Of a DNA stretch of 64,000 bases, positions 443 through 24,576 are shown piece by piece. The notes beneath the pieces are model-generated. The model did no database searches. It was given only the letters and a program-made list of their open reading frames with translations, and was not told the DNA's origin. This DNA is from Pseudomonas sp. (GTDB taxonomy: Bacteria; Pseudomonadota; Gammaproteobacteria; Pseudomonadales; Pseudomonadaceae). A program made the position numbers and the translations under genes. Each line of letters starts with the position of its first letter. Position 1 is the first letter of the stretch. The stretch spans positions 171,663 through 235,662 of the forward strand of contig NZ_JBLWTV010000007.1 in NCBI RefSeq assembly GCF_048269965.1, in the 5' to 3' direction.

Positions 443-458
443 GACCAGCGACCAGCGC

Positions 459-3220: not shown

Positions 3221-3293
3221 TTCGTTTCATCTGACCGGAAGCCCAAGGGCTTCGGGGCGTGATGCTGCAAGTCTGTCGCGCGACACCGATCCG

Positions 3294-3335
3294 CTCCCCT
3301 CTACCATTTATGGGAGAGGGGCTGGGGGAGAGGGC
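3294..3335. repeat. REP-type hairpin of the GGGAGAGGG family
   Basis: CTCCCCTCT-N11-GAGAGGGG followed by GGGGGAGAGGGC. Related units occur at 9481-9563, 55421-55472 and 56827-56946. Confidence 0.7.
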
Positions 3336-3383
3336 TAGCGGTACTTCTGTAGAACAACGCCAAGTCGGTCATTCGAGGTTCTT

Positions 3384-5145: not shown

Positions 5146-5301
5146 ACGTCTATAGTTGCCTGATGGTGCGCAGCGGGGGGTTGCGCACCGCTGAGGGCGG
5201 CGGCGCTGGGCACCAAGATGAGTGACGGCAACTATAACGATCACAGGGATGTAGGCGCAGGGCACTGCGAAGGGCTGCGCGAGTCGGGCAAGCGCAAGCT
5301 G

Positions 5302-12038: not shown

Positions 12039-12566
12039 TCAGCGCGCCGCCCCGGCTCGAAAACGTCCACGCCACCAGCGCGCCAGCCACGATTGAGGCT
12101 CGCGCGGTGCTGAGTGGGTCTGCCGATGGAAGCGCGGCAACTCGCCCAGGGCGATCCACAGCTCACCCTGCCACTCCAGCAGATTGACCTGCTGATTGTC
12201 CCAGGCCATCAGGCAGCGGGATGGCTCATGAGCGGCCCACGCCGCACTGTCGCGCAGCGCTGGCAAGGCCACATGGCTGAGCCAGCGGCGCAGAAGACGG
12301 TTCTCCGGATGCGAGAAGCGCCACAGCGCCCGGTACATGCCCGACTCACTGAGCACCTCCACCGTCTCCAGCTGCCCGCTGGCCAGCTGGAAATGCACCG
12401 TCCGCACCTGGTCGGCATCCATCAGCCGGCAGATGCGCTCCGGGTGGCGATGGCCCAGCAAGCGCGCAAACTCCCAGGCACAGACCCACGGCTGGCGGTC
12501 GATCATCACGCCGCGCAACGGACGGTTATGCCGCATCAGTACGATGGGGACGTAGGCATCTTCCAT
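12039..12566 (-). CDS. Bro-N domain protein (prophage antirepressor-like)
   Basis: 175 aa. ESGMYRALWRFSHPENRLLRRWLSHVALPALR matches the conserved core of Bro-N/antirepressor N-domains. Divergent from an XRE HTH gene. Confidence 0.7.
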   Translation of the reverse strand: MEDAYVPIVLMRHNRPLRGVMIDRQPWVCAWEFARLLGHRHPERICRLMDADQVRTVHFQLASGQLETVEVLSESGMYRALWRFSHPENRLLRRWLSHVALPALRDSAAWAAHEPSRCLMAWDNQQVNLLEWQGELWIALGELPRFHRQTHSAPREPQSWLARWWRGRFRAGAAR

Positions 12567-12593
12567 AAGGCCTCCCGGCTGCTTGGTTCACTG

Positions 12594-12652: not shown

Positions 12653-12934
12653 ATGCCTCCTGTGGAAAAGTCGGTTTATCGAGACGAGAACCTGATTTTC
12701 TTGAAATTGCTCAAACAGTGTCGGGTCGAGGCAGGGCTGACCCAGGACGACTTCGCCAAAGCGCTCGACCGCCCACAGTCGTTTGTCAGCGATGTGGAGC
12801 GTGGGCTGCGTCGGCTGGATCTGATCCAGCTCCGGGATATCTGTCAGGTGCTGGGCATCAGCTTGAGCAGCTTTGTGCAGCGCTTCGAGGATGAGTTGGC
12901 TGGCAATAGTGGTGTGGACACAGGAAGGAGCTAA
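12653..12934 (+). CDS. XRE/Cro-CI family HTH transcriptional regulator
   Basis: 93 aa with a clean HTH_3 pattern: LTQDDFAKALDRPQSFVSDVERGLRRLDLIQLRDICQVLGISLSSF. Confidence 0.8.
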   Translation: MPPVEKSVYRDENLIFLKLLKQCRVEAGLTQDDFAKALDRPQSFVSDVERGLRRLDLIQLRDICQVLGISLSSFVQRFEDELAGNSGVDTGRS

Positions 12935-13015
12935 GGCTCCGGGTGGCGGTGCACCCAGGGCGATGTGCCGTCGCAGAGGATAATGAATCTCTCCCCACGT
13001 CATCTGGCGGCGACG

Positions 13016-13051
13016 ACGCATCAGCACGATGGGGATCAAGGCATCTTCCAC
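13016..13051 (-). pseudogene. Decayed duplicate of the Bro-N gene 5' end (GTG start, about 12 codons)
   Basis: 13018-13060 matches 12533-12575 at 37 of 43 positions by hand alignment. Encoded MEDALIPIVLMR compares with MEDAYVPIVLMR. The rest of track ORF 12536..13051 is antisense to the XRE gene. Confidence 0.6.
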
Positions 13052-13174
13052 AAGGCCACCTGATTGTCAGCCGCCTATGGCGGGTGGGTTCGAACGTGCG
13101 GGCAGGGGAATGCGCACGCATGGCGAGTCTGGAATGAGGGGTATTTGGTAGACTCTTAAGCGGCGATGCAGAAG

Positions 13175-13212
13175 GGTCCTAATTGGGACCAATATAGGTC
13201 CCCTTTGGGACC
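13175..13212. promoter_or_regulatory. Two adjacent palindromes upstream of the second HTH gene (candidate operators)
   Basis: GGTCC-taattg-GGACC (13175-13190) and GGTCCC-cttt-GGGACC (13197-13212), ending 20 nt before ATG 13232. Confidence 0.5.
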
Positions 13213-13231
13213 CTTGTCAATAGAGGGTGTG

Positions 13232-13471
13232 ATGGATCTGCCGGCAAAACTGAAGGCACTACGGATGCACGAAGGCCTCACGCAAGGTGACTTTTGTGAG
13301 CAACTGCAGATCAGTCTGAGCACCTACAAGAAGCAAGAGCTTTCCCTGCGGTCGGATATCAGCGCCACGGTTCTTCTAAAGGTCACCAATCACCCGAGGT
13401 TCAAGAAGTACACCCTCTGGCTGATGACAGGCGACACGGCACCGGAGTGTGGGCAGGTCAGTCCGCTGTGA
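13232..13471 (+). CDS. Small phage-repressor-like HTH protein
   Basis: ORF 13166..13471 trimmed to ATG 13232 (SD GAGGG). HTH: LTQGDFCEQLQISLSTYKKQE. The C-terminal KYTLWLMTGDT resembles short Cro/CI-type regulators. 79 aa. Confidence 0.65.
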   Translation: MDLPAKLKALRMHEGLTQGDFCEQLQISLSTYKKQELSLRSDISATVLLKVTNHPRFKKYTLWLMTGDTAPECGQVSPL

Positions 13472-13816
13472 GGTTTTGGTTGTGGAGTAAAGGATTATGA
13501 GTTGCCTCGAAACGCTTCAAACCCAGCAAAACCGTGAATAGCTTAATGCAAGTAAAATAAGCTGAAAGCAGCGTCGTTACTGGGCTTGAGCGTAATTTTG
13601 CAAAAGCGACAGAAGCTGGACGCTGTACCGTCAGTGTACTGTTTTTTGTACTGCGATGGCTTCCAGTGCAAGCTGCCACATTGGTTTGCATTGCACGGGT
13701 AATCCGCAGCGTTTTCGACTCATTGGGGTTCTACATGCAGTTATGTTGAGCTAGGGCTAAAGAAATCGTCAGCGCTAACTGGCTTGTGAATATGCTATTA
13801 CATGGTGCCCTAACTT

Positions 13817-14029
13817 TTATTGGGTTCTTTGATAGCTAAATGAGTTCATTATGTGAGCTCTGAAGTATACCCCGTGAGAGCTGGCGCCCATTAAGTCGGT
13901 GTATATAGACTCTGGTACTCCGTAGTATTCGTAGATGCGACCATTGAGAAACTCAATTTCGAGTGTTTCAGTTGACGGGTCATAACCGATTGAGGCGAGG
14001 TTACTAGATCCGACCTGTACACGTTCCAT
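13817..14029 (-). CDS. KTSC-domain protein (stand-alone, 70 aa)
   Basis: VGSSNLASIGYDPSTETLEIEFLNGRIYEYYGVPESIYTDLMGASSHGVYF fits the KTSC pattern (SSNI..GYD...L.VEF..G..Y.Y..VP...Y..L..A.S.G.YF). ATG lies 5 nt after the HerA stop, with AAGGA inside the HerA 3' end. AT-rich like its neighbours. Confidence 0.75.
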   Translation of the reverse strand: MERVQVGSSNLASIGYDPSTETLEIEFLNGRIYEYYGVPESIYTDLMGASSHGVYFRAHIMNSFSYQRTQ

Positions 14030-14034
14030 TTTGA

Positions 14035-15807
14035 TTATCCTTGATTGTTGGTTTGAGAACGCCAGCTATTTATTAGCTCTTTATAGTTTTCTACTTCCTT
14101 TGGTTTTTTCCAGGAATCCGCAACGCATGGGTCTTTACTGTTGGGGTACTTATCGTCTGGTAATAAGTTAAATCTGCAGCGTGTAGGTAGCTTTGCAGCT
14201 TCCCCTACAATTATGGCTTCGCCAGTTCTTAGGATTGGGAGAGTGTCTACTATGCCAGACAAGCCTTCGGACATTGCGGATTTAACTATGCCTCTGTCAG
14301 TGGTGTTGTTTATCCTTAATGAAATAATCGTGCCGCATTGAGATAAAATTGTTTCGTCAATTTCAGAGGGCCTTTGGCTTACTAGCATTGCGCCAACACC
14401 GAATTTACGTCCTTCTTTAGCAATTCGCTGAACCATTTCTTTTGCAAGACCAGTTTCAGATTTGGAAAGATATCTGTGTGCTTCTTCAAGAACTAAGAGC
14501 AACGGCCTTTTTCTCATTCCTGCCTGTAGCTCTCGGCCCCATATAGAAACCTCAAATAGCACATCTAGAATAGTTCCAAGTAATAGGCTGAGTCGCGAAG
14601 ATGGCATTCCCGACAAGTCAAGAATTGTTATTGGTTTTTCATGGCCGAGCCACCCTTCAACAAGTGCGTCTAAATCTTTTTCTATAACGCCATTTTTGTT
14701 TGGGCTCCATTCGCCGGGCTCTAACATAAATGAATATTGTGTGTCTGCTAGTCTTGACTTCATTAAGTCAAGCTGTCTCTTCATTAAACCTGCGCCACCT
14801 TTAAATGGTGGGGTATTTCCAGGTGCCGGAGGCTGAAATTTTGGTGCTATAAGGCTTTCACAGTCGCCCAAACCATTTGTGGCGTAGGCAGGCACTGTCT
14901 GGTCCTTATCCATCCAGTTCACATTATCTAGGAAACATAGTTCATGCCAAATTTTTTTAATGCTGTACGGAAGAGGTGTTGAGCTTGTAACTCTATCCGG
15001 GTTGACACCGTCGAAGTTATTGGCGGTAATGCTGTTTATTTTTTCAGAAACTGTTTTATCTAAAAAGATCGCTTTTTGGCTGTCACTTAAAGTTCCACAG
15101 AGAAATTCCATTAGGTGTGTCGGAGATATGCACCAGTAAGGCACGTATAGCTTGTTCTCAGCTTCAGGGAGAACTGAAAAAACATTAGCGATGTCGCCTA
15201 GGGCTGATTGGTATTCCCCATGTATGTCTATAAGTAGTATGCGAGCGGAAGGCATGTTTATTTTTTCCGCCGCTGTGACCATGGATCTCAATATGCTAGC
15301 TGTACTAGTAGATTTCCCTGATCCGGTTGATCCGAATATCGCGGAATGCCTTGTGACTAGTTTGTCTAAGTCCAAGCTAACGCTTATGCCGTCTGAGCTC
15401 GAAAGTGTCCCGACGTTAAAGTGGCCATCAATGTCCTTGCCAAATATTTTTTTCAGGTCACTGTCTACTACTATGTGTACCTCATTACCTATGCTCGGGT
15501 ACTCGCTAATGCCGCGTTCAAACTCACCGGCAACTATTTCCCCAATGAGCTCGATTTTTATCCAGCGACGATCAAGGTGGATGCCGTCTTGATCGTCTAA
15601 CTGAGACGACTCGCTGGAGCCGGCGATAACGCCGTACAAGTTATTATATCCAAGCAATATTTTTACAAAGCTACCAACCTGGCCAATTCGATAGTTTCTA
15701 CCTTCCAGTATGACTATGCCTGACTCCACAGAATCGGCGAGTTCAACAACTGCCGAGGAGCTTGAGACGGCGCTAATATTGCCAAGCAGTGTGGGGGAGT
15801 TATTCAT
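14035..15807 (-). CDS. HerA-type hexameric ATPase/helicase partner of SIR2
   Basis: HAS-barrel-like N-terminus, Walker A GSTGSGKST, Walker B LLLVLEEAHRYL, and SQRPSEI. Start moved from the track start (15867) to ATG 15805-15807 (MNNSPTLLG), which overlaps the SIR2 stop within ATGAATAA. 590 aa. Confidence 0.85.
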   Translation of the reverse strand: MNNSPTLLGNISAVSSSSAVVELADSVESGIVILEGRNYRIGQVGSFVKILLGYNNLYGVIAGSSESSQLDDQDGIHLDRRWIKIELIGEIVAGEFERGISEYPSIGNEVHIVVDSDLKKIFGKDIDGHFNVGTLSSSDGISVSLDLDKLVTRHSAIFGSTGSGKSTSTASILRSMVTAAEKINMPSARILLIDIHGEYQSALGDIANVFSVLPEAENKLYVPYWCISPTHLMEFLCGTLSDSQKAIFLDKTVSEKINSITANNFDGVNPDRVTSSTPLPYSIKKIWHELCFLDNVNWMDKDQTVPAYATNGLGDCESLIAPKFQPPAPGNTPPFKGGAGLMKRQLDLMKSRLADTQYSFMLEPGEWSPNKNGVIEKDLDALVEGWLGHEKPITILDLSGMPSSRLSLLLGTILDVLFEVSIWGRELQAGMRKRPLLLVLEEAHRYLSKSETGLAKEMVQRIAKEGRKFGVGAMLVSQRPSEIDETILSQCGTIISLRINNTTDRGIVKSAMSEGLSGIVDTLPILRTGEAIIVGEAAKLPTRCRFNLLPDDKYPNSKDPCVADSWKKPKEVENYKELINSWRSQTNNQG

Positions 15808-17044
15808 TATGATCCCCTTCAGGTGTACCCTCTTCAGCCTCGGCTGGTTGGGTGCCGGCAACTGCAATAAGAGCTTCGATATCTATCGGGTCCCTTATTG
15901 TGTTACTTGAAAAGTCGCCTCCGGCGGTTGCTAGGAATCTCGCTAGTCGACTAAAATCTCCCAATAAAAAGTTGCCTTCACTATAGTACTCGCCTCTTAT
16001 ATTTCTCCAGCCTTTACTTGGCAGTGCGCCTGTTCTCCACTTGGCCTCCACTCCATTGATAATGGCGCCATCTTTACAGTATGCACTTATGCCGGGACAT
16101 TTTAGTGCTAGATCTCGTATGTATGTTTCGGATTCGAGTTTTCCGTATTGAAACGCTAATAGGGCTGAAGAGGGATTGGCCTGCAAGCTTTCCAGCAATC
16201 TTGATGAGATGTGTGCGTCAGCGAATGAAAAGCCAGTTGAAATTAATAGGCTGTCAGGCTCGAGAATGAAATTTCTTAGCCGCTCAAATAGTGAAGAAAA
16301 TGGTGCGGCTTGGGTTTGATCATATTTGATGTGTGATGGGTAAACCATGCTTGCGTTGTTGGAGCGTGGGATTCTGATAATTTCATTTTTATCGTTTTTC
16401 TCCCACCCAATAGATCCATGAAGTTTCCATAGTCTTACCCATCGTGAAGGAAGGTCGTTTTTAGAAATGCTTGACGGGTCAAAGAAAGCATCTCTTGCAC
16501 CACTAAAGCCATCGAAATACGGTGTCTTAGAGCGTTCTAGTGCCTGTTCTAGCAAGAGGTCATAGTTTGTTGTGAAAACCTCTACGCCATGTTTTCTATT
16601 TACGCCATTAATCCAAGATACTAACTCTGAGTAAGGTGTTTGCCCTAGCGGTAATTCTTTGCTTACTGCATCCCTAATTAGGTTGCATATTTTTTCAGAT
16701 AGTTCTAGGAATTCGATTGAATTACAGCCATAAACAATTGAATCGCCAATGACTTCATTCAGGGCCCGTATTTTTGAAAGCACTTTCTCTAGGTTTGGGC
16801 TGAGAATTGATTCCTCAAGATCTTGATAGACTTTCAACTCCTTGGCGGAAAGGTTCTCTTTAACGGTCTTTGTCAATCCTTGAAGATTGGGGATCAGTGA
16901 TATCCAGTCGTCATTTGAGGGCCCTATATTAATGCTTACCGGAGCTCCTGCTCCCATAAGAACACCAATTTTCTTCTTTCCGTTACTAGCCAGCTGACGG
17001 AAGCCAAACATATACTGGTCCGGGTTATGTGTCGAATCACTCAT
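15800..17044 (-). CDS. SIR2-family (SIR2_2-like) NAD-utilising effector
   Basis: 414 aa with GVLMGAGAPVS, VFTTNYDLLLEQA, LWKLHGSIGW and GFSFADAHI, the hallmark blocks of defence-type SIR2 domains. ATG 17042-17044 is preceded by AAGGAT. Confidence 0.85.
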   Translation of the reverse strand: MSDSTHNPDQYMFGFRQLASNGKKKIGVLMGAGAPVSINIGPSNDDWISLIPNLQGLTKTVKENLSAKELKVYQDLEESILSPNLEKVLSKIRALNEVIGDSIVYGCNSIEFLELSEKICNLIRDAVSKELPLGQTPYSELVSWINGVNRKHGVEVFTTNYDLLLEQALERSKTPYFDGFSGARDAFFDPSSISKNDLPSRWVRLWKLHGSIGWEKNDKNEIIRIPRSNNASMVYPSHIKYDQTQAAPFSSLFERLRNFILEPDSLLISTGFSFADAHISSRLLESLQANPSSALLAFQYGKLESETYIRDLALKCPGISAYCKDGAIINGVEAKWRTGALPSKGWRNIRGEYYSEGNFLLGDFSRLARFLATAGGDFSSNTIRDPIDIEALIAVAGTQPAEAEEGTPEGDHNE

Positions 17045-17131
17045 CGCTGGCTTATATCCTTTTGGCTATTAATATTTTCAGAGAAAAGTCACGGATTAAT
17101 TTCTCTACGAGGTCACTCTTCATTGAAGTAG

Positions 17132-17141
17132 TAGATATCTA
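17132..17141. promoter_or_regulatory. Perfect palindrome TAGATATCTA upstream of the SIR2 gene
   Basis: Lies 88-97 nt upstream of the SIR2 ATG in a 135-nt AT-rich gap. It shares the AGATATCT core with the palindrome at 12605-12614. Confidence 0.35.
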
Positions 17142-17179
17142 GTCTCGGCAGTTTAATTAGGTGCGCTCGATAGATGGTG

Positions 17180-17950
17180 TTAAAGGCTCTGCATCGTCCT
17201 GCACCTCGGAAAGCCCGAGCATCCCCAGAACTGTTGTCCCATTTTCGGGCCTGTCTTCACCGTGCGGATCAGCAGCGCATTACCGCATCTCGGGCATTGC
17301 CGCTCGGCTGTCGGATCACTCCGGCGTTTGAGGTTTTGCACGTGCTCGCGGTGGGTGGCGAGGGTCGGCGAGCGGCGGCCGGTTTGTAGGGCGTGCAGCA
17401 TGGCGTCGACTTCAGCCTCGCTGAATACCGCCTGCTGGAATGATTTGATGTAGCGGATAAAGCCGATGCCCTGGGTCACGTTGGCCGGCACTTCGGTCTT
17501 GAAGGTGCTGCCGCCGACGAATGTGATGACCGAATGCAGATGCTCGGGGCTGACGCCCAGGGTGGCTTCCAGGGCTTTGAGGTGTTTGTAGTTCTGGCGC
17601 AACGGGTTCTGGAACTTGAAGGTGCGTTTGTAGAGCTTCTGCGTCCACTGCGCCTGTTTCTCGCTGCCGAAGATCCAGCCGCTCATGTTCTTCGTTTCCA
17701 GCACGAAGATGCCGTAGGGCGAGAGGAATACGTGGTCGATCTGCGTGGTGCCGTCTGGCGTGTTCAGGGTGATGTTGTGCAGGCGGCGGTAGGTCTGCTT
17801 GTCCAGCTGCCAATGGGCGAACAGGCGTACCAGCAGTTCACCGATATGCCCCTTGGCCCAGGGCGATTTGAGCAGGCCGATCAGCAGGGCTGCCGGGATG
17901 AACCAGGTCAGCATGCCCCAGACCTGGGCGACTATCGGGCTGTAATCCAT
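17180..17950 (-). CDS. Membrane-anchored NERD-domain nuclease-like protein with C-terminal topoisomerase-type Zn ribbon
   Basis: N-terminal TM (WGMLTWFIPAALLIGLL), a NERD-like core (GHIGELLV...IDHVFLSPYGIFVLETKN), and C-terminal CPRCGNALLIR...FWGCSGFPRCR. SD AAGGAAG. Confidence 0.75.
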   Translation of the reverse strand: MDYSPIVAQVWGMLTWFIPAALLIGLLKSPWAKGHIGELLVRLFAHWQLDKQTYRRLHNITLNTPDGTTQIDHVFLSPYGIFVLETKNMSGWIFGSEKQAQWTQKLYKRTFKFQNPLRQNYKHLKALEATLGVSPEHLHSVITFVGGSTFKTEVPANVTQGIGFIRYIKSFQQAVFSEAEVDAMLHALQTGRRSPTLATHREHVQNLKRRSDPTAERQCPRCGNALLIRTVKTGPKMGQQFWGCSGFPRCRTMQSL

Positions 17951-18123
17951 TTTCTTCCTTGAGCAGAGCTGCTTGATGGCTGGGCGAGCAGGTGTGCCGA
18001 AATCCAGATGCCTGGCACTGATCTCGATAATGGCTAATTGCTTTCAATGGCTCAAGGGGTTCGCGACCATTGTCCTATGGCCGCTGGGCGGTTACGCCTG
18101 GTTTGGTGCCTTTGCAGAAATGT

Positions 18124-18171
18124 TCAGTGTGGCCAGCCGGGCTGCTGCCAGAACCAGATCGGGTCATTCAA
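18124..18171 (-). pseudogene. 15-codon remnant of a second Fic gene 5' end (start decayed to TTG)
   Basis: Reads TTG AAT GAC CCG ATC TGG TTC TGG CAG CAG CCC GGC TGG CCA CAC TGA, i.e. (M/L)NDPIWFWQQPGWPH*. The intact Fic begins MNDPLWIWQQPDWPHF. The upstream spacer and operator are also conserved. Confidence 0.7.
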
Positions 18172-18185
18172 AAGGATTGTTTATC

Positions 18186-18218
18186 CATGAGCCGAATACG
18201 GGCGCTATTCGGCTCATG
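18186..18218. promoter_or_regulatory. Perfect 13-bp-arm inverted repeat (operator copy C of the Fic promoter type)
   Basis: CATGAGCCGAATA-cgggcgc-TATTCGGCTCATG, 14 nt upstream of the Fic remnant start. Confidence 0.6.
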
Positions 18219-18321
18219 GAATGGGTGACGTGATGATGCTCAACGAAGGCAACCTGCTGGCACAAGTCCTGACCAAGCGCCTGGGCGACCACTTCGAGCA
18301 TCTGGATGTTATGAGAGCGGC

Positions 18322-18974
18322 TCATGCCTGCAGCACCTTCTCGCGCAGCATCTGGTTGGCAAGATTGGCTTCTCTGGCGTTACCCAGGCGAATGGCATCG
18401 ATCAGGGCCAGGTATCCAGGTATTCATACAGGCGCGGGTCTTTCTTGACTGCGCCTGGCACCGTCCTGAACAGGGGCGTTATGGATTGTCCCTTGCGATT
18501 GCCGTAGGCGTCTGGCCAGACGTGGATAAGGTCGCCACCACTCATCAGGGTGCCTTGCAGCACGGGAGCGGAGAAGCTTGTAGGAATGCCTCGAACGATT
18601 TCAGCCGGTTTTAACGGGAATACGTAGCGCAAGCCATGCTCGATGAAGCCCAGCAGTGCCTTGCTGTTGACCCGAGGTAACTGTGTGTTCGGGTCCATTC
18701 GCAACAGACCTGTCTGTTGGCAGCGTTTCAGCGCGGAGGCAATTTCGCTTTTACTGATGCCCAGTGAGGCTTGCAGGGCGCGCACTGAGTAACTGTCGTG
18801 ATGGACGGGTGGATCTTGCTCGGCGTCATCCTCCCAGCCTTGCCACTGGTCGTGTGAGGGGACGTCGCTTTGCTTGAGCAGTTCTGCTGTTTCGCTCTCA
18901 AGCCTCTGTTGCAGGCGTTCGCGCTGCTCAAGGCAGATCAGCTTGACTAGCAACAGAACGTCTTGACTCTTCAT
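18322..18974 (-). pseudogene. Winged-helix-like DNA-binding protein gene disrupted by an 8-bp tandem duplication
   Basis: Track ORF 18402..18974 ends at ..RLYEYLDTWP*. CCAGGTAT is duplicated at 18408-18415 and 18416-18423. Removing one copy restores ..EYLALIDAIRLGNAREANLANQMLREKVLQA* with the stop at 18322-18324. A central SVRALQASLGISKSEIASALKRCQQTGLL segment looks like an HTH. Confidence 0.65.
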
Positions 18975-18991
18975 GGCGGCCTCAGTTAGCG

Positions 18992-19028
18992 ACTGTCCTT
19001 TGTCCTTTGTCCTAGGACTGAGGACAGT
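18992..19028. promoter_or_regulatory. Array of GTCC/GGAC half-sites upstream of the winged-helix gene
   Basis: ACTGTCC-TTTGTCC-TTTGTCC-TAGGAC-TGAGGACAGT. Outer 7-bp arms ACTGTCC/GGACAGT enclose the perfect palindrome GTCCTAGGAC. It lies 18-54 nt upstream of ATG 18974. Confidence 0.5.
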
Positions 19029-19219
19029 TTATGCGCTGGCAGGTTGCGTCTGTCAATGGCTTGGCTGGCTTGCCGCAGATTGGCATTCAAGGCCTGCAGC
19101 GCTCTATCCAGATTGTCGCCAAGGATTGAGGGAGGGGGGGATTTTTCAATGCGCCGGGGGGTGGCCATTGGCCTATGGCACGATGACGCACCAGAGGCTG
19201 ACTTGGTCGGCTTAGGTGC

Positions 19220-20341
19220 TCAGCGTGCTATCTGGTAACGGGTGCTGCGCCCACCACCGGGCAGTCGCTCGATGCAGCCCTTCTCCATCAGGTCGCTCAG
19301 ATGACGGGTGGCGGTGGCTTTGGATACCTTCGCCACGGCTTGGTACTGCGCCGCGCTGATACCGTTCTCGAAACCCTTTTCGCCGCCATCGAGCAGGCGA
19401 TTCAGCACTTTTATCTGCTCGGTCGATAGGGGTTGGCTGCGGTGTGCCTGCCAGAAGCGCGCCTTGACCAGCACGCGGTCGATACGAGCAAGGGCCTGCT
19501 CCAGGCTGTTGAGTAAGGTTGCGAGAAACCACTGCAGCCAGCTGGTGATATCCAGCCCACCTTTCTGACTGGCTTCGAGGATGCGGTAGTAACCGGCGCG
19601 GTCGTTGAGAATGCTAGCGGACATCGCGTAAAAGCGGATGGCCTGCTGTTCGCCCTGAGCCAATGCCAAGTCGGTAATGGCGCGAGTGAGGCGGCCGTTG
19701 CCGTCATCGAAGGGGTGCAGGGTCACGAACCAGAAATGGGCGATGCCGGCGCGGAGAAAGGGATCTAGGCTGACATCGTTGCGGCTGCTTTTGAACCAGG
19801 CGAGAAAGTCCGCCAGTTGCGCTTCCAACCCGGCGCGAGGCGGGGCTTCGAAATGTACGGTCGGTTGGTCGATGCGACCGGAAACCACCTGCATGGGCTC
19901 TTCGCCGCGCAGAGTGCCGATGTGTAATGGTCGAGCCAGCAGTTGGTCGTCGCTAGGGAATAGCCAGCGGTGCCAGGTGAAAAGTCGTTGTTCATCTAGC
20001 GGTTCTTGATGCAAGCGGGTTGCGTCGAACAGTAACTCTGCCAGGCCTTCGGAGCGCGAGGTGGTGCGGCCTTCTTCGTTCAGCCCCAGGCGCCGCGCCA
20101 GTGATGAACGCACCGAGCCGACATTTAGCTGCTCACCCTCGATGGCTGAGGAGGTGACGATGTTTTGCAGCATGGCATCCAGGCTGCTCTGCACTTCGGT
20201 GTCACTGCCCACCGCACCGAGCATCCCCAACAAACGTCCCTGAGCCTGACTGCAAGCGCGCAGCAGCGGGGCAAGCGTTTCGCCTTGCCAACTGAAGTGC
20301 GGCCAGTCGGGCTGCTGCCAGATCCAGAGCGGGTCATTCAT
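19220..20341 (-). CDS. Fic-family protein (DUF4172-type N-terminus, class II inhibitory helix, C-terminal wHTH)
   Basis: Active-site loop HPFDDGNGRLTR (HxFx[DE]GNGRxxR) and an inhibitory motif SSAIEG ([ST]xxxE[GN]) upstream of it. N-terminus MNDPLWIWQQPDWPHFSW. C-terminus ISAAQYQAVAKVSKATATRHLSDLMEKGCIERL. Confidence 0.85.
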   Translation of the reverse strand: MNDPLWIWQQPDWPHFSWQGETLAPLLRACSQAQGRLLGMLGAVGSDTEVQSSLDAMLQNIVTSSAIEGEQLNVGSVRSSLARRLGLNEEGRTTSRSEGLAELLFDATRLHQEPLDEQRLFTWHRWLFPSDDQLLARPLHIGTLRGEEPMQVVSGRIDQPTVHFEAPPRAGLEAQLADFLAWFKSSRNDVSLDPFLRAGIAHFWFVTLHPFDDGNGRLTRAITDLALAQGEQQAIRFYAMSASILNDRAGYYRILEASQKGGLDITSWLQWFLATLLNSLEQALARIDRVLVKARFWQAHRSQPLSTEQIKVLNRLLDGGEKGFENGISAAQYQAVAKVSKATATRHLSDLMEKGCIERLPGGGRSTRYQIAR

Positions 20342-20356
20342 AAGGGTTTTTCATCT

Positions 20357-20421
20357 ATGAGCCGATTAGCGAGCCTATTCGGCTCATTCAGTGAGCCGAT
20401 AATGCCGACTATTCGGCTCAC
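20357..20421. promoter_or_regulatory. Two tandem 31-bp palindromic operators upstream of the Fic gene
   Basis: ATGAGCCGATTA-gcgagcc-TATTCGGCTCAT (20357-20387) and GTGAGCCGATAA-tgccgac-TATTCGGCTCAC (20391-20421). Centre-to-centre spacing is 34 bp. The first begins 15 nt upstream of ATG 20341. Confidence 0.6.
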
Positions 20422-20565: not shown

Positions 20566-20588
20566 AAAGCCGCGCAGTGCGCGGCTTT
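20566..20588 (-). terminator. Stem-loop terminator downstream of the tRNA
   Basis: AAAGCCGCGC-agt-GCGCGGCTTT, a 10-bp stem. On the minus strand it is followed by TTTCGTGTTTCT, and it sits 5 nt after the tRNA 3' end. Confidence 0.6.
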
Positions 20589-20593
20589 GAAGG

Positions 20594-20670
20594 TGGTGGG
20601 CCCAGCAGGACTTGAACCTGCGACCAATCGATTATGAGTCGAGTGCTCTAACCAACTGAGCTATAGGCCC
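20594..20670 (-). tRNA. tRNA with CAU anticodon, most like tRNA-Ile2 (lysidine type, ileX-like)
   Basis: Minus strand reads GGGCCTATAGCTCAGTTGGTTAGAGCACTCGACTCATAATCGATTGGTCGCAGGTTCAAGTCCTGCTGGGCCCACCA (77 nt). The cloverleaf folds by hand. The anticodon arm CGACTCATAATCG resembles E. coli ileX rather than elongator Met. G1-C72 are paired, so it is not an initiator. ileX also lies downstream of rpoD in E. coli. Confidence 0.9.
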
Positions 20671-20686
20671 CCAGAAGGCCGGCGGA

Positions 20687-23600
20687 TTATACCGGCGCGT
20701 TCTCGCCAGCGCCAACCGCTTGACCTGGCGGGAGAAACTTCCGGGTGAAGGCCTCGGCCGAAAGCGGGCAGCTGACCACGTAGCCCTGGATCTGCAGGCA
20801 GCCTTCGGCGGCCAGGCAGAGTTCCTGGGCCTTGGTTTCCACGCCCTCGGCGATCACTGTCAGTTGCATGCTGTTGCCCAAGGCGATGATGGCGCGGGTG
20901 ATCGCCAGGTCGTGCGGGTCGTCCGGCAGGCCACGCACGAAGGACTGGTCGATCTTCAGCACGTCCAGCGGCAGGCGCTTGAGGTAGCTGAGCGAGGAGT
21001 AGCCGGTGCCGAAGTCGTCGATGGCCAGTTGCACGCCGAGCTGTTTGAGGCGGTGGAGGATGTCCAGCGCTTCGCCGGCCTGGTTCATGATGAAGTTTTC
21101 GGTGATCTCCAGTTGCAGCAGCTGCGGTGCCAGGTTGTAGCGCTGCAGCAGTGCGCTGATGCGCGGCAGCAGGCTGGGCTGGTGCAGCTGGGCGCCGGCG
21201 AGGTTGACCGAGAGGGCGCCGAAGCCGTGGCCGCTTTCCTGCCAGATCTGCAGTTGCCGGCAGGCTTGTTCCAGCACCCAGTCGCCCAGCGGCAGGATCA
21301 GCCCGCTTTCTTCGGCCACCGGGATGAAGCGATCCGGCGGGATGTCGCCGAACACCGGGTGCGGCCAGCGTACCAGCGCTTCGGCGCCGACCAGGCTCTG
21401 GCTGCGCAGGCAGTACTTGGGCTGGTAATACAGGCACAGTTCGTCGCGCTCCAGGGCGCGGCGCAGTTCCTGTTCCATGGCCATGCGCTCGTTGACCTGG
21501 AAGGTCAGCGAGCGGGTGTAGAACTCGCTGCGGTTGCGCCCCTTGGCCTTGGATTGGTACATGGCCGCGTCGGCGTTCTTGACCAGAGTGGCGACGTCGA
21601 GGCCGTCCTTGGGGTAGAGGCTGATGCCGATGCTGGCGCTGATGAAGAACTCGTGGTTGTCGAGCTGGAACGGCGCGCCGAAGCATTCGAGCAGTTTCTG
21701 CGCGACCTGTTCGGCGTCCTGCGGCTGGTGCAGGCCGGGCAGCAGGATGATGAATTCGTCGCCGCCGAGACGGGCCACGGTGTCGATATCGCGCAGTTGC
21801 AGTTTCAGGCGCGCGGCAATGGCCTTGAGCAACTGGTCGCCGACCGGGTGGCCGAGGCTGTCGTTGATCTGCTTGAAGCGGTCGAGGTCGAGGAACAGCA
21901 CGGCGCCCAGCTGGTCGTCGGCGCGCGAGCCATCCAGAGCACTGCGCAGGCGGTTCTCGAACAGCAGGCGGTTGGGCAGACCGGTCAGCGGGTCGTGGTG
22001 GGCCTGATGATCGAGGCGTGCCTGGGCATGCTTGAGGCTGGAGATGTCGGCGAATACCCCGACGAAGTGGGTGATCTGGTTATCGCTGTTGCGCACGGCG
22101 CTGATGGTCAGCCACTCGGGGTACAGTTCGCCGCTCTTGCGCCGGTTCCAGATTTCCCCCTGCCAGTGGCCGTTGGCCGCGAGGCAATGCCACATGGCGG
22201 CGTAGAAGGCGTTGTCGTGCTGGCCGGAAGACAGCAGGCTGGGGCGCTGGCCGAGGGCTTCGGCCTCGCTGTAACCGGTAATCTGGGTGAAGGCGCGGTT
22301 GACCGCAGTGATGCGCTGTTCGAGGTCGGTGATCAGCACGCCTTCGGCAGTGCTTTCGAAGACGGTGGCGGCCTGCTGCAGTTCTTCCTGCATCTGCTGG
22401 CGTTCGGTGATGTCGCGAGCGATGGTCAGCAGGCATTCGTCGCCGCCTATGGGCAGCGGCTGTGCGGAAAGTTCGCAGAGGCGCAACTGGCCGCTCTTGG
22501 TGCGCACCGTGGCGATCAGGTCGCGCACGCTGCCTTGCTCGCGAATGCGTTGCACCAGGCGTTCACGATCTTTCGGATCGGCCCAGATGCCCAGGCTGAG
22601 GGTGCTTTGTTCGGCAATCTCGTCGAGGCTGTAGCCGGTGATGCGGCTGAAACCATCGTTGGCCTCCACCAGCATGCCGTCGCGCAGGCGGGTGATCAGC
22701 AGTCCATCGGGCGAGGCGTGGAAGGCCTTGGCGAACTTCTCTTCGGATATCTGCAACTGCTGCTGGGTGCTCTTGAGCTGGCTGATGTCGCGCACCACCA
22801 CGACCAGTGCCGGGGTGCTGTCGAGCACGAACTGGCTGGCCGAGATGAGGCCGGTGAACAGGCTGCCATCGGCGCGGCGAAAGGGCATTTCCAGGTTGCG
22901 CAGGCTTTCGTCCTGCAGGCGCAGCAGCAGGCTCGGGCCGATGCCAGGCACGCCCCACAGATCGAGGTCGGTGGCGGTCTTGCCGATGGCCTGCTCGACG
23001 CTGATGCCGGTCTGTTCGGTGAAGGCGGTGTTGACCTCCAGCAGCACGCCGTCGACGCGGCGGGCAATGATCAGGATGTCCGGGCACTGCTGGAAGACCG
23101 AGGCGAACTTCTGTTCCGACAGGCGCAGCGCCTGCTCGGTCTGCTTGGCGTCGCTGATGTCGACCATCAGGCCGCGAATCACCTGGCGGTCGTCGCGTTG
23201 CAGCAGGGTGACGATATCGCGCACCCACACCGTGCGCCCGTCGGCGGCGAGCAGGCGGTATTCCAGGGCGTGGTCGTTGCCGGCCGAGCATTGTTCCAGG
23301 CAGGTGCGCAGGGTGCGCTGGTGATCGTCCGGGTGCAGGTGGCGCTGCCAGAAGCCGGGCTCCAGCCATTCGTGCAGCGGGTAGCCCAGCAGTTTTTCCG
23401 CGTGGGGCGAGACGTAGGTGTAGGTGAGCCCGCTGGACTCGGTTTCCCAGGTGATGGCCGAGAGGCTTTCGACCATGTCGCGAAAGTGCTGCTCGCGGTT
23501 GCGCAGTTCCTGCTCCAGCGCTTCGCGGTTGCGCATCTCGCGTTTCAGGCGGCGGTTGATGCGCAGGATGATGGCGATGACCGCCAGCAGGCCGAGCAGG

Positions 23601-24421
23601 GCGGGCAGGCCGTAGAGCAGGGTTTCGTACCAGACGCTGCGTTTGTCCAGCACGCTGCCGACCCAGGGTTCCTGCAAGGCGGCGATTTCTTCGGCGCTGA
23701 GCTCGGCGAAGATTTTGTCGAGGATGCCGACCAGTATGCTCTGGCCGCGCGGTGCGGCCATGGCCAACTGGTAGCGATAGGGCGTCTCGCCGCTGATATA
23801 GACGCCGTCGAGCTTGAGCTGGCGCAGGCTCCAGACGCTGGAGGCGAGATCGCCGACCATGGCGTCGACCTGATTGGTCGCCAATGCCTGCAGGGCAGCG
23901 GCGACATTGCGCAGCGGCAGCAGGTTGAGATCGGGGTGTTGCTGGCGCAGCAGCTCGTGCGGTGCGTAGTCGGCCACCACGGCAATCTTCAAGCCGTACA
24001 GCTCATCGAGCTTTCTCGGCTGTGGCCCGCCGTTGCGAGCAAGGATGACGATGGGAAAATCCAGGTAGGGGCGGGTGAAGGTCAGGTATTGCTGGCGTTC
24101 GGGTGTCGACATCACGCCGGGAAGCAGGTCGATGCGGCCCATGCGCGCCTGCTCCAGTATCGCGCTCCAGTTGTCGGGCTCGACGGGTTGCAGCTCTAGG
24201 TCAAGGCGCTCTTCGATCAGCCGCACATAGGCGGCGGTCAGGCCGTGGTAGTTGCCCTGTTCGTCACGAAACTCGAACGGTGGCCAGGATGCATCGACAC
24301 CCAGGCGCAGTTCGCGGTGGGCTGCCAGCCAGGTGCGCTCGTCCTCGTTGAGTGTCAGGGCTTGGGCCGGGGTCATCCAGTACGCCAGGCACAACAGCAC
24401 AATGGCCGGCAAGCGGGGCAT
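20687..24421 (-). CDS. Multidomain c-di-GMP signalling protein (periplasmic solute-binding domain, TM, several PAS, GGDEF, EAL)
   Basis: ORF 20687..24580 trimmed to ATG 24421 (MPRLPAIVLLCLAYWMTPAQA signal sequence), giving 1244 aa. GGDEF motif RLGGDEFIIL. EAL domain EALVRW...QLEITE. Position next to rpoD and size match P. aeruginosa PA0575 (RmcA) as I recall it. Confidence 0.85.
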   Translation of the reverse strand: MPRLPAIVLLCLAYWMTPAQALTLNEDERTWLAAHRELRLGVDASWPPFEFRDEQGNYHGLTAAYVRLIEERLDLELQPVEPDNWSAILEQARMGRIDLLPGVMSTPERQQYLTFTRPYLDFPIVILARNGGPQPRKLDELYGLKIAVVADYAPHELLRQQHPDLNLLPLRNVAAALQALATNQVDAMVGDLASSVWSLRQLKLDGVYISGETPYRYQLAMAAPRGQSILVGILDKIFAELSAEEIAALQEPWVGSVLDKRSVWYETLLYGLPALLGLLAVIAIILRINRRLKREMRNREALEQELRNREQHFRDMVESLSAITWETESSGLTYTYVSPHAEKLLGYPLHEWLEPGFWQRHLHPDDHQRTLRTCLEQCSAGNDHALEYRLLAADGRTVWVRDIVTLLQRDDRQVIRGLMVDISDAKQTEQALRLSEQKFASVFQQCPDILIIARRVDGVLLEVNTAFTEQTGISVEQAIGKTATDLDLWGVPGIGPSLLLRLQDESLRNLEMPFRRADGSLFTGLISASQFVLDSTPALVVVVRDISQLKSTQQQLQISEEKFAKAFHASPDGLLITRLRDGMLVEANDGFSRITGYSLDEIAEQSTLSLGIWADPKDRERLVQRIREQGSVRDLIATVRTKSGQLRLCELSAQPLPIGGDECLLTIARDITERQQMQEELQQAATVFESTAEGVLITDLEQRITAVNRAFTQITGYSEAEALGQRPSLLSSGQHDNAFYAAMWHCLAANGHWQGEIWNRRKSGELYPEWLTISAVRNSDNQITHFVGVFADISSLKHAQARLDHQAHHDPLTGLPNRLLFENRLRSALDGSRADDQLGAVLFLDLDRFKQINDSLGHPVGDQLLKAIAARLKLQLRDIDTVARLGGDEFIILLPGLHQPQDAEQVAQKLLECFGAPFQLDNHEFFISASIGISLYPKDGLDVATLVKNADAAMYQSKAKGRNRSEFYTRSLTFQVNERMAMEQELRRALERDELCLYYQPKYCLRSQSLVGAEALVRWPHPVFGDIPPDRFIPVAEESGLILPLGDWVLEQACRQLQIWQESGHGFGALSVNLAGAQLHQPSLLPRISALLQRYNLAPQLLQLEITENFIMNQAGEALDILHRLKQLGVQLAIDDFGTGYSSLSYLKRLPLDVLKIDQSFVRGLPDDPHDLAITRAIIALGNSMQLTVIAEGVETKAQELCLAAEGCLQIQGYVVSCPLSAEAFTRKFLPPGQAVGAGENAPV

Positions 24422-24535
24422 AACGGCCTCGTTTCGCGATCGGTATCGTCGTAGTGTAGATCGGCCATCGCCGGGATGGCAGTTTGATTGCAGCGTCTGC
24501 GCTGCCTCTGGCTGGCGAGTGGCCGGGCGTGCTGC

Positions 24536-24570
24536 CCAGAAAGCAAAACCCCCGGCCTGGGCCGGGGGTT
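24536..24570 (-). terminator. Rho-independent terminator after rpoD
   Basis: Minus strand reads AACCCCCGGC-ccag-GCCGGGGGTT followed by TTGCTTTCT. It begins 7 nt after the rpoD stop. Confidence 0.8.
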
Positions 24571-24576
24571 CTGGTA

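What the first reader, a model, noticed from the sequence alone, without database searches (positions are those of the whole stretch)
14035..17044. Translationally coupled SIR2-HerA defence pair in an AT-rich cassette
Seen: two co-directional minus-strand genes. The upstream 414-aa product has the defence-type SIR2 blocks GAGAPVS, TTNYD, KLHGS and GFSFAD. The downstream 590-aa product has a HAS-barrel-like N-terminus, Walker A GSTGSGKST, Walker B LLLVLEEAH and SQRPSE. The SIR2 stop (TAA 15800-15802) and the HerA ATG (15805-15807) overlap within ATGAATAA, which implies stoichiometric co-expression. Established: SIR2+HerA pairs are a described anti-phage family in which the assembled complex depletes NAD+ and can attack DNA. 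Inference: this is the functional core of the island. The context (third cistron, NERD neighbour, tRNA-proximal islet without an integrase) is unusual.
Basis: partly seen in the sequence, partly recalled or inferred. Interest (0 to 1): 0.75.

Follow-up and report, generated by a model that had tools for sequence, protein, structure and literature searches.

The report
SIR2-HerA-KTSC three-gene phage defence operon
This is a real but ordinary SIR2-HerA anti-phage system; the small "extra" third gene is the tail domain of HerA encoded separately, as in most relatives of the one lab-studied version in which that domain is fused.

Summary
SIR2 (15800-17044, minus strand, 414 aa) and HerA (14035-15807, 590 aa) overlap by 8 nt. 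They match PADLOC SIR2-HerA models at E=8e-157 and 3.5e-151. The catalytic residues are present, and the genes lie in a 42-48% GC cassette within a 65% GC genome.

The closest characterised relative is the Paenibacillus sp. 453MF system (PDB 8W9L, 8WIV, 8WLD).

The "unusual third cistron" (13817-14029, 70 aa, KTSC) matches residues 629-695 of that 696-aa HerA (E=6e-17). Its model superposes on the domain resolved by cryo-EM (TM 0.90). All 37 sampled loci with HerA at least 34% identical have KTSC: 34 as a separate adjacent ORF and 3 fused. None of 51 more distant HerA loci has it. A tree puts fused forms at two places, each nested among split forms, so split appears ancestral.

The unit is therefore a conserved three-gene operon, not a pair plus an oddity. 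NERD, Fic and a PDC-M21A-like gene are island neighbours, not conserved partners.

The NERD-to-KTSC block is 94.6% identical to a locus found in hundreds of Pseudomonas assemblies, while the flanking core is 76% identical. This indicates lateral transfer into a syntenic tRNA-Met site.

Verdict: a new member of a known kind, plus a useful point about the system's architecture.

The parts
15800..17044 (-). SIR2 gene (414 aa), a defence-type sirtuin and the predicted NADase effector. Catalytic N160 (16565-16567), D162 (16559-16561) and H209 (16418-16420).
   Evidence: PADLOC PDLC04094 E=8e-157 covering residues 4-380. Pfam SIR2_2 2e-17. PDB 8w9l (Paenibacillus SIR2) E=2.3e-79, 38.7% identity. N160, D162 and H209 align with the putative catalytic N163, D165 and H212 named in PMC11472057.
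14035..15807 (-). HerA gene (590 aa): N-terminal beta-barrel, RecA-like ATPase with Walker A K165 (15313-15315) and Walker B E441/E442, and a helical bundle. It ends just after the WRSQ helix and lacks the linker and KTSC part of the reference 'arm' domain.
   Evidence: PADLOC PDLC04105 E=3.5e-151, residues 3-587 on profile positions 7-574 of 576. Pfam DUF87 9e-31 and HerA_C 1e-6. PDB 8wiv_A E=3e-141; query 3-585 aligns to chain 9-603 of 696, 40.6% identity. K165 aligns with K173, whose K173A mutant loses defence.
13817..14029 (-). KTSC gene (70 aa). It is the detached equivalent of residues 629-695 of the fused Paenibacillus HerA and the third subunit of the system.
   Evidence: Pfam KTSC 1.8e-25. 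PDB 8wiv_A residues 629-695, E=5.8e-17, 48.5% identity. AF2 model pLDDT 95.6 superposes on HerA chains 8wld_L, 8wof_B and 8wiv_O with TMq 0.88-0.90 and rmsd 1.1 A. A separate KTSC ORF follows HerA in 34 of 37 related loci.
15800..15807 (-). SIR2-stop/HerA-start overlap ATGAATAA (8 nt), the translational-coupling junction, with a purine-rich GAAGGGGA stretch just upstream.
   Evidence: Sequence read directly. The same type of overlap (ATGA, GTGA or ATGnnnTAA) recurs in most of the 26 related loci examined.
14027..14042 (-). HerA-stop/KTSC-start junction: AAGGA (14042-14038) TAA (14037-14035) TCAAA ATG (14029-14027). The Shine-Dalgarno-like AAGGA lies within the last HerA codons, 8 nt before the KTSC ATG. 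The two ORFs are in different frames.
   Evidence: Sequence read directly. The HerA-to-KTSC spacing is -29 to +25 nt in 24 related loci.
13482..18081 (.). Laterally exchanged block (NERD, SIR2, HerA, KTSC and about 330 bp downstream). The low-GC (0.41-0.48) cassette proper spans about 13500-17150.
   Evidence: 94.6% DNA identity to the Pseudomonas loci L005, L008 and L009. The adjacent core (tRNA-Met, GGDEF/EAL sensor, rpoD; 20566-25998) is only 76% identical. GC profile.

Best explanation
The locus is a three-gene, translationally coupled operon, SIR2-HerA-KTSC. It encodes an abortive-infection system of the same subfamily as the Paenibacillus sp. 453MF SIR2-HerA. By homology (inferred, not shown here), HerA forms a hexameric ATPase ring whose N-terminal beta-barrels dock a SIR2 12- or 14-mer. 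Assembly and a phage cue would then release SIR2 NADase activity, together with HerA ATPase/helicase and complex-associated nuclease activity. NAD+ would collapse and the infected cell would stop supporting phage growth. The 70-aa KTSC protein supplies in trans the domain that, in the fused homologue, forms the distal part of the HerA C-terminal 'arm'. That arm is reported to wrap the neighbouring subunit and stabilise the resting split-spiral ring. The overlapping or closely spaced start and stop codons would keep the three products co-expressed. The cassette was acquired horizontally (low GC) and sits in a syntenic tRNA-Met hotspot alongside unrelated defence genes.
For: Identity: PADLOC and Pfam hits. 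The best PDB relatives are the Paenibacillus SIR2 and HerA. Catalytic N160/D162/H209 and Walker A K165 are conserved. KTSC as part of the system: it matches 8wiv_A residues 629-695. Its model superposes on the ordered domain in the HerA-alone and SIR2/HerA complex cryo-EM chains. KTSC is present in 37 of 37 loci with HerA at least 34% identical and in 0 of 51 more distant HerA loci, Fisher p=1e-25. SIR2 lies upstream in every clade locus with enough sequence to tell. The clade is monophyletic in 99/100 bootstraps, and fused forms appear at two places nested among split forms. Fused linkers keep an M-E/D-R-E motif at the old KTSC start. HerA-KTSC gaps are -29 to +25 nt, and pairwise distances correlate (HerA/SIR2 r=0.955; HerA/KTSC r=0.61, Mantel p<=5e-4). 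The trio recurs in unrelated contexts: a Serratia integrase islet at smpB, Acidovorax, a second P. aeruginosa lineage, and E. coli and Sulfitobacter plasmids. Mechanism: experiments on the Paenibacillus homologue are reported in PMC11472057.
Against: Nothing was tested experimentally on this locus. Identity to the characterised homologue is moderate (SIR2 38.7%, HerA 40.6%), so the oligomer state and the trigger may differ. SIR2-HerA subtypes are known to differ in their activities (PMC13434337). Of four HerA residues whose combined mutation abolished SIR2 binding in Paenibacillus, only Y60 is identical here (Y54); the others are conservative changes (F39 to I33, I100 to V92, Q110 to E102), read from the alignment. 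Whether the free KTSC protein binds HerA is inferred from the fused structure and from co-occurrence only. No convincing promoter or terminator was found above chance.
Confidence: 0.8

Rival explanations
1. The functional system is the SIR2-HerA pair alone. KTSC would be a dispensable accessory, for example a nucleic-acid-binding regulator or a leftover, that merely travels with the operon.
For: PADLOC 2.0.0 has no model that hits KTSC. Other SIR2-HerA subfamilies work without any KTSC; 6 loci in the sample have SIR2 upstream of HerA and no KTSC. The paper on the fused homologue attributes the inter-subunit contacts mainly to helices alpha19-20 of the arm, not explicitly to the KTSC part.
Against: Retention is 37 of 37 across HerA identities of 34-98%, with at least two independent fusions to HerA. 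The domain is ordered in the solved complex. Tight spacing is conserved.
Confidence: 0.12
2. The unit has four genes: the NERD/zinc-ribbon nuclease-like gene upstream (17180-17950) would be a functional partner of SIR2-HerA-KTSC.
For: NERD lies 135 nt upstream on the same strand and inside the 94.6% identical transferred block. A NERD-like ORF also sits directly upstream of SIR2 in the unrelated low-GC metagenome locus L016, where HerA is 57% identical.
Against: NERD is absent from all other distinct trio loci examined (L001-L004, L010, L013-L015, L017-L034, L048 and the plasmids). Its GC of about 0.60 differs sharply from the cassette's 0.43. The L016 NERD is only 25.7% identical over 113 aa.
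Confidence: 0.06
3. SIR2 here would act mainly as an ADP-ribosyltransferase on DNA or protein delivered by the HerA translocase, rather than as an NAD+-depleting hydrolase.
For: Iyer et al. 2022 (PMC9503650) proposed this from gene-neighbourhood logic: in related HerA systems the sirtuin is exchangeable with endoDNases, some of which have a KTSC gene.
Against: NAD+ depletion on infection and in vitro NADase activity are reported for the closest characterised homologue and for other SIR2-HerA systems (PMC11472057, PMC11514289, PMC13434337). No endoDNase-for-SIR2 swap was seen in the 37 KTSC-clade loci.
Confidence: 0.05
4. The locus is an inactive remnant with intact-looking ORFs but no function in this host.
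For: There is no integrase or mobility gene nearby. One related strain (L006) carries a disrupted SIR2 of 121 + 284 aa, so decay does occur at this site.
Against: All three ORFs are full length. The proteins are 93-98% identical to those in hundreds of assemblies. The catalytic residues and coupling junctions are intact.
Confidence: 0.04

Closest known systems
Paenibacillus sp. 453MF SIR2-HerA (PDB 8W9L, 8WIV, 8WLD; PMC11472057)
   Same: It belongs to the same subfamily and gives the best PDB hits for all three window proteins. The domain content is the same (SIR2, HerA beta-barrel, RecA-like domain, helical bundle, KTSC). The putative catalytic N/D/H and the Walker A Lys are conserved. SIR2 lies upstream of HerA.
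   Different: There KTSC is fused to HerA through a linker of about 25 aa (696 aa in total). Here HerA stops at 590 aa and KTSC is a separate 70-aa protein with its own ATG and SD-like sequence. Identity is only 39-49%. The host is a Gram-negative Pseudomonas. The tree indicates that the fused form is the derived, minority state.
E. coli SIR2-HerA 'Nezha' (PDB 8J4U) and E. coli types I-III (PMC13434337); S. aureus SIR2-HerA (PMC11514289)
   Same: Same general logic: a SIR2 NADase effector plus a HerA ATPase ring, acting by abortive infection.
   Different: The sequence relationship is distant (8j4u SIR2 E=1.7e-14, HerA E=1.7e-30). No KTSC was found in any of the 51 sampled distant HerA loci, including 6 with SIR2 upstream. 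Oligomer states, interfaces and enzymatic repertoires differ between subtypes.
HerA + KTSC gene + endoDNase systems noted by Iyer, Burroughs, Anantharaman and Aravind 2022 (PMC9503650, as unpublished observations)
   Same: A HerA-like ATPase coupled to a separate KTSC-domain gene in a conflict system.
   Different: That remark concerns variants with an endoDNase in place of the sirtuin. Here, and in every KTSC-clade locus sampled, the effector is SIR2.
Stand-alone KTSC proteins (PDB 7X8C Methanolobus vulcani; 4RGI Yersinia pestis YPO2434; Pfam PF13619)
   Same: Same fold: TM 0.97 to 7X8C and 0.93 to 4RGI, with 40-46% identity. The size is the same, about 70 aa.
   Different: Those proteins have no assigned function, and I did not examine their gene context. 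Nucleic-acid binding by KTSC is only an inference in the literature.

Membership tests
SIR2-HerA anti-phage system (PADLOC/DefenseFinder sense) | A defence-type SIR2 (SIR2_2) protein with the NAD-binding Rossmann motif and catalytic Asn/Asp/His | tested here: met
   PADLOC SIR2 PDLC04094 8e-157 and Pfam SIR2_2 2e-17. GAGAPVS at 31-37. N160, D162 and H209 align with N163, D165 and H212 of 8W9L.
SIR2-HerA anti-phage system (PADLOC/DefenseFinder sense) | A HerA/FtsK-superfamily ATPase with an N-terminal barrel and Walker A/B motifs | tested here: met
   PADLOC HerA PDLC04105 3.5e-151, full length. Pfam DUF87 and HerA_C. Residues 3-585 align with 8wiv_A, including its beta-barrel (aa 1-132). K165 corresponds to K173; Walker B is LLLVLEE. 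The Pfam HAS-barrel model itself gave no hit at E<=0.01.
SIR2-HerA anti-phage system (PADLOC/DefenseFinder sense) | The two genes are adjacent and co-directional in one operon | tested here: met
   8-nt overlap of the SIR2 stop and HerA start, conserved in type across relatives.
SIR2-HerA anti-phage system (PADLOC/DefenseFinder sense) | Confers phage resistance with NAD+ depletion on infection | not testable with these tools
   Experimental property, shown only for homologues (PMC11472057, PMC13434337).
Paenibacillus-453MF-type SIR2-HerA subfamily (KTSC-bearing clade defined here) | HerA falls in the monophyletic clade that contains the 8WIV HerA | tested here: met
   NJ tree with 99/100 bootstrap support for the clade against 7 outgroup HerAs without KTSC.
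Paenibacillus-453MF-type SIR2-HerA subfamily (KTSC-bearing clade defined here) | A KTSC domain at the C-terminal end of HerA, fused or as the next ORF | tested here: met
   A separate ORF at 13817-14029, 5 nt after the HerA stop, matches 8wiv_A residues 629-695. 37 of 37 clade loci have it, against 0 of 51 others.
Paenibacillus-453MF-type SIR2-HerA subfamily (KTSC-bearing clade defined here) | SIR2-HerA docking interface (HerA F39, Y60, I100, Q110 in Paenibacillus numbering) | tested here: inconclusive
   Read from the alignment, Y60 is conserved (Y54). The other three are conservative substitutions (I33, V92, E102). Binding cannot be judged from sequence.
E. coli Nezha-type SIR2-HerA (8J4U) | Close sequence relationship to EcSIR2 and EcHerA, including the EcSIR2 C-terminal extension | tested here: not met
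   Only distant hits (SIR2 1.7e-14 over the core; HerA 1.7e-30 over the C-terminal half). The NCBIfam antiphage SIR2 and HerA equivalog models score far below their cut-offs.
tRNA-integrated genomic island with its own integrase | A tyrosine integrase next to the tRNA and a direct repeat of the tRNA 3' end at the far border | tested here: not met
   No integrase homologue anywhere in the window. No tRNA-derived direct repeat in 11.5-20.8 kb. Related strains do carry other integrase-bearing elements at this tRNA (L008).

The most novel reading that the evidence does not exclude
KTSC is an obligatory third subunit of this SIR2-HerA subtype and, because it is a free protein in most members, it acts as a regulatory or sensing lock. 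Bound to HerA, it would hold the ring in the resting split-spiral state. Displacement, titration or nucleic-acid binding during infection would let the ring close and switch on SIR2. If so, two-gene definitions and two-gene clones of this subtype would be incomplete, and the fused lab model would mask a regulatory step.
Probability: 0.2. Interest if true: 0.6.

Novelty: new member of a known kind. Interest (0 to 1): 0.33.

Why it matters
For the window itself the result is simple: this is a standard, probably functional SIR2-HerA abortive-infection system in a Pseudomonas defence islet, nearly identical to a locus common in Pseudomonas assemblies.

The wider point concerns one large SIR2-HerA subfamily, found in Pseudomonas, Serratia, Acidovorax, Xylophilus and on many plasmids, 58 of 82 of them conjugative. 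This subfamily is normally a three-gene system. Its third gene is the KTSC domain that happens to be fused to HerA in the single structurally studied representative.

PADLOC 2.0.0 has no KTSC model. In the searchable literature I found no paper that links KTSC to SIR2-HerA, apart from one passing remark about endoDNase variants. Anyone cloning or annotating these systems as SIR2 + HerA alone may omit a subunit. The natural split also offers a simple genetic handle, a KTSC deletion, for asking what the HerA 'arm' does.

Tried and rejected
(1) Exact-sequence look-ups of the window's HerA, SIR2 and M21A-like proteins found nothing on record, so the source genome was not identified.

(2) The genome-contig scan with the single HerA protein returned only 4 loci. 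Wider sampling came from the profile scan of metagenome contigs and from look-ups of individual homologues.

(3) Promoter and terminator scans over 13.4-17.4 kb gave counts no higher than shuffled sequence. I make no claim about transcript ends.

(4) I searched for att-like direct repeats and for terminal repeats around the cassette and found nothing convincing.

(5) L026 first appeared to lack SIR2 and so looked like a possible endoDNase variant. That was an artefact of my ORF-gap filter; SIR2 is present at E=7e-122.

(6) A first tree script with Biopython bootstrapping timed out. I redid it with a numpy distance bootstrap.

(7) The P. aeruginosa core defence hotspots cDHS1 and cDHS2 are different loci (tRNA-Pro and ssrA flanks), so that paper does not describe this site.

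(8) The phage collection holds no relative of this HerA beyond a terminase-like hit.

(9) I could not determine whether any E. coli type (I-III) of PMC13434337 is the KTSC type, because no supplementary files are held. A DNA search of E. coli genomes gave only short weak hits.

(10) Rfam found only the tRNA in the window.
Full report
1. Observation. A TTG-started extension to 610 aa exists, but homologues do not support it; the 98%-identical cluster P0001 is 590 aa. Read on the minus strand, the junction is ...GGGGATCATAATGAATAACTCC.... The HerA ATG is at 15807-15805 and the SIR2 TAA at 15802-15800, an 8-nt overlap. Every quoted motif is present at the stated places. GC falls to 0.41-0.48 between about 13.5 and 17.2 kb, against 0.65-0.68 on both sides. 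This is the lowest GC in the 64-kb window.

2. Identity of the pair. Pfam gives SIR2_2 (2e-17), and DUF87 (9e-31) with HerA_C. PADLOC gives SIR2 PDLC04094 (8e-157, near full length) and HerA PDLC04105 (3.5e-151, residues 3-587 on profile positions 7-574 of 576). Against solved structures, the best hits are the SIR2 (8W9L, 2.3e-79, 38.7% identity) and HerA (8WIV, 3e-141, 40.6% identity) of Paenibacillus sp. 453MF, described in PMC11472057. SIR2 N160, D162 and H209 align with the putative catalytic N163, D165 and H212 of that protein. HerA K165 aligns with K173, whose K173A mutant no longer protects. The E. coli 'Nezha' pair (8J4U) and the S. aureus pair are only distant relatives. NCBIfam's antiphage SIR2 and HerA equivalog models score far below their cut-offs. 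This fits the generic public names: 'SIR2 family protein', 'ATP-binding protein' and 'KTSC domain-containing protein'.

3. The third cistron. The reference HerA is 696 aa, and PMC11472057 describes its residues 576-696 as a C-terminal 'arm' domain. The window's HerA aligns only to residues 9-603 of that chain and then stops. Five nucleotides later, in another frame, a 70-aa ORF begins (13817-14029). An AAGGA Shine-Dalgarno-like sequence sits inside the last HerA codons, 8 nt before the ORF's ATG. The ORF is a KTSC domain (Pfam 1.8e-25). Its best hit in the whole PDB is residues 629-695 of the Paenibacillus HerA chain (5.8e-17, 48.5% identity). An AlphaFold2 model (pLDDT 95.6) superposes on stand-alone KTSC crystal structures (7X8C TM 0.97, 4RGI TM 0.93). 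It also superposes on HerA chains from the HerA-alone and SIR2/HerA complex cryo-EM entries (8WLD, 8WOF, 8WIV; TM about 0.90, rmsd 1.1 A, 69 columns). The KTSC domain is therefore an ordered part of the solved assembly. The window encodes it as a separate polypeptide.

4. Is the split real and conserved? All 120 best HerA homologues (59-98% identity) are 522-605 aa long, and none carries the KTSC Pfam domain. They come from Pseudomonas, Variovorax, Xylophilus, Roseateles, Acidovorax, Serratia and others. Among 150 representatives at 50% identity, only two contain a fused KTSC, and both are N-terminally truncated fragments. I assembled 94 loci and searched all their ORFs with iterated KTSC, SIR2 and HerA profiles.

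All 37 loci whose HerA is at least 34% identical to the window's have a KTSC domain. In 34 it is a separate ORF directly downstream, and in 3 it is fused (L017, L019, L039). The script flagged four of those 34 as 'elsewhere', only because my longest-ORF rule made the KTSC ORF overlap HerA by more than 60 nt. None of the 51 assessable loci with more distant HerAs has KTSC, including six that do have SIR2 upstream (Fisher p=1e-25). SIR2 lies upstream in every clade locus with enough sequence to tell, including L026 once a filter artefact was corrected. With KTSC starts set from the profile alignment, the HerA-to-KTSC spacing is -29 to +25 nt in 24 loci, and KTSC is 67-73 aa long. Pairwise distances correlate strongly between HerA and SIR2 (r=0.955). 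The correlation between HerA and the short KTSC is weaker but significant (r=0.61, Mantel p<=5e-4).

5. Direction of change. I built a neighbour-joining tree on 571 HerA columns. It recovers the KTSC-linked clade in 99 of 100 bootstraps. The Paenibacillus fused form falls inside a 7-member group (100/100) whose other six members are split. L017 and L019 (100/100) fall inside another group with the split L018 and L021 (89/100). All the deeper branches are split. The fused proteins retain Met-Glu/Asp-Arg-Glu exactly where the free KTSC proteins start (MER...), preceded by a linker of about 25 residues. The most economical reading is that the three-gene form is ancestral and the usual one. Fusion to HerA would then have arisen at least twice, and the model system belongs to the derived minority. 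This rests on a distance tree of 38 sequences and should be confirmed on a larger set.

6. Translational coupling. The overlap of the SIR2 stop with the HerA start recurs across the clade as ATGA, GTGA or ATGnnnTAA. Together with the tight HerA-KTSC junction, this supports co-translation of all three products. The coupling is shown at the sequence level. Stoichiometric expression is an inference.

7. Context. The trio recurs in unrelated settings:
- next to an integrase and an Ogr/Delta gene at smpB in Serratia (L010);
- in Acidovorax (L013);
- next to an integrase and ParB/DUF932 genes in a second P. aeruginosa lineage (L014);
- as a four-gene insert with a Bro-N gene in Pseudomonas sp. (L001);
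- on plasmids, in 82 PLSDB records of which 58 are conjugative, including an E. coli IncF plasmid and a Sulfitobacter plasmid where RefSeq annotates all three genes.

No phage genome in the collection carries it.

The window's own arrangement is tRNA-Met, Fic, (M21A-like gene), NERD, SIR2, HerA, KTSC. It matches a locus present in about 790 index blocks of Pseudomonas assemblies, where it lies between the dnaG-rpoD-GGDEF/EAL-tRNA-Met side and the IMPa side. At the DNA level, 13482-18081 (NERD to KTSC plus about 330 bp) is 94.6% identical to those loci, and Fic is 87.6% identical. The adjacent core, from tRNA-Met to rpoD, is only 76% identical. So the window comes from a different Pseudomonas species that shares a recently exchanged block at a syntenic site; synteny resumes at the small Pmp3 gene. 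There is no integrase in the window and no att-like repeat. In other strains this same tRNA has captured an integrase island, a group II intron and prophage genes (L007-L009). The 'integrase-less islet' is therefore a common state of a busy hotspot rather than an anomaly. NERD is absent from all other distinct trio loci except one low-GC metagenome contig (L016), where a weakly similar NERD ORF again precedes SIR2. Its GC (about 0.60) also differs from the cassette's. I treat it as a neighbour and give a small probability to its being an accessory.

8. Mechanism (inferred by homology). For the Paenibacillus system, PMC11472057 reports the following:
- SIR2 alone is an auto-inhibited dodecamer.
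- HerA alone is a split-spiral hexamer 'stabilized by a unique C-terminal extension'.
- Mutations in the catalytic sites, or mutations that break the complex, abolish protection.

Work on other subtypes adds ATP-mediated inhibition and phage SSB-type triggers (PMC13434337). I therefore expect the window's system to deplete NAD+ in infected cells through a HerA-SIR2 supercomplex, with the free KTSC protein occupying the position of residues 629-695 of the fused arm. KTSC itself has no demonstrated function; the literature calls it RNA- or DNA-binding by inference only. The trigger, the oligomer state and the role of KTSC in this locus are not shown.

9. Novelty. SIR2-HerA is a well-described family, and this locus is close to sequences already in public genomes, so it is a new member of a known kind. 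In the searchable literature I did not find the recognition that the distal 'arm' of the model HerA is a KTSC domain, or that most members of the subfamily encode it as a separate third gene. The only related statement is a remark on HerA + KTSC + endoDNase variants, given as unpublished observations in PMC9503650. PADLOC 2.0.0 has no model that hits KTSC. This is a modest but practical correction to how the subtype is defined and cloned.

10. Verdict. It needs correcting on two points. The unit is a conserved SIR2-HerA-KTSC trio, and the surrounding context is common rather than unusual. Interest is low to moderate.

Noticed in passing
window 18082-19155 (ORF 18402-18974, minus strand): A 1.07-kb segment absent from the otherwise collinear Pseudomonas loci lies between Fic and NERD. 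It carries a 190-aa ORF that matches the PADLOC candidate-system protein PDC-M21A (E=5e-78), with a weak MarR-like wHTH hit. No PDC-M21 partner protein was detected among the neighbours tested.
   Followed up: partly
window 18126-18217 and 20296-20387: A 92-nt direct repeat (84% identity) duplicates the upstream region and first ~15 codons of the Fic gene (MNDP.W.WQQP.WPH). This leaves a Fic 5' remnant just upstream of NERD, which suggests that the M21A segment arrived by recombination between two Fic-type modules. The repeat includes a 29-nt palindromic element (TGAGCCGA...TATTCGGCTCA) present three times: 18188-18216, 20358-20386 and 20392-20420.
   Followed up: partly
window 19220-20341 (minus strand): A DUF4172-Fic-wHTH protein lies next to tRNA-Met and matches the PADLOC SoFic model (E=9e-39). 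It is below the NCBIfam SoFic equivalog cut-off and is 87.6% identical in DNA to the Fic gene at the same site in other Pseudomonas genomes. It may be a second, independent defence gene in the islet.
   Followed up: partly
window 17180-17950 (minus strand); L016 1706-2641: A NERD + topoisomerase-type zinc-ribbon protein lies 135 nt upstream of SIR2 and travels with the cassette in the 94.6% identical block, yet its GC is about 0.60 against 0.43 for the cassette. A distantly similar NERD ORF also sits directly upstream of SIR2 in an unrelated low-GC metagenome locus (L016), which has a Fic gene 2 kb downstream as well. This could be chance within defence islands or a loose accessory link.
   Followed up: partly
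window 12039-12566 (minus strand), 12516-12575 and 13001-13060; L001 12208-12714: A Bro-N domain ORF lies downstream of the trio, and a 60-nt, 78%-identical second copy of its 5' end lies 485 nt away. Two small HTH genes (12653-12934 and 13166-13471, plus strand) lie between it and KTSC. In Pseudomonas sp. locus L001 a 34%-identical Bro-N ORF follows KTSC directly, so Bro-N may belong to the vehicle that moves the cassette.
   Followed up: partly
L006 8765-10008: In one assembly with the near-identical locus, SIR2 is called as two ORFs (121 + 284 aa). The effector gene is apparently disrupted while HerA and KTSC remain intact.
   Followed up: no
L007, L008, L009 (about 1-6300 in each locus): Different elements sit between tRNA-Met and the Fic gene in different strains: phage tail-fibre genes in L007, a tyrosine integrase with DUF3987/DUF5681 genes in L008, and a group II intron reverse transcriptase in L009. 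The tRNA-Met site is thus an active insertion hotspot even though the window's copy has no integrase.
   Followed up: no
L010 3559-8569 (Serratia marcescens): The trio forms a minimal islet of integrase, SIR2, HerA, KTSC and an Ogr/Delta-type zinc-finger gene immediately downstream of smpB. This resembles the P4-satellite or P2-type defence hotspots described in enterobacteria.
   Followed up: no
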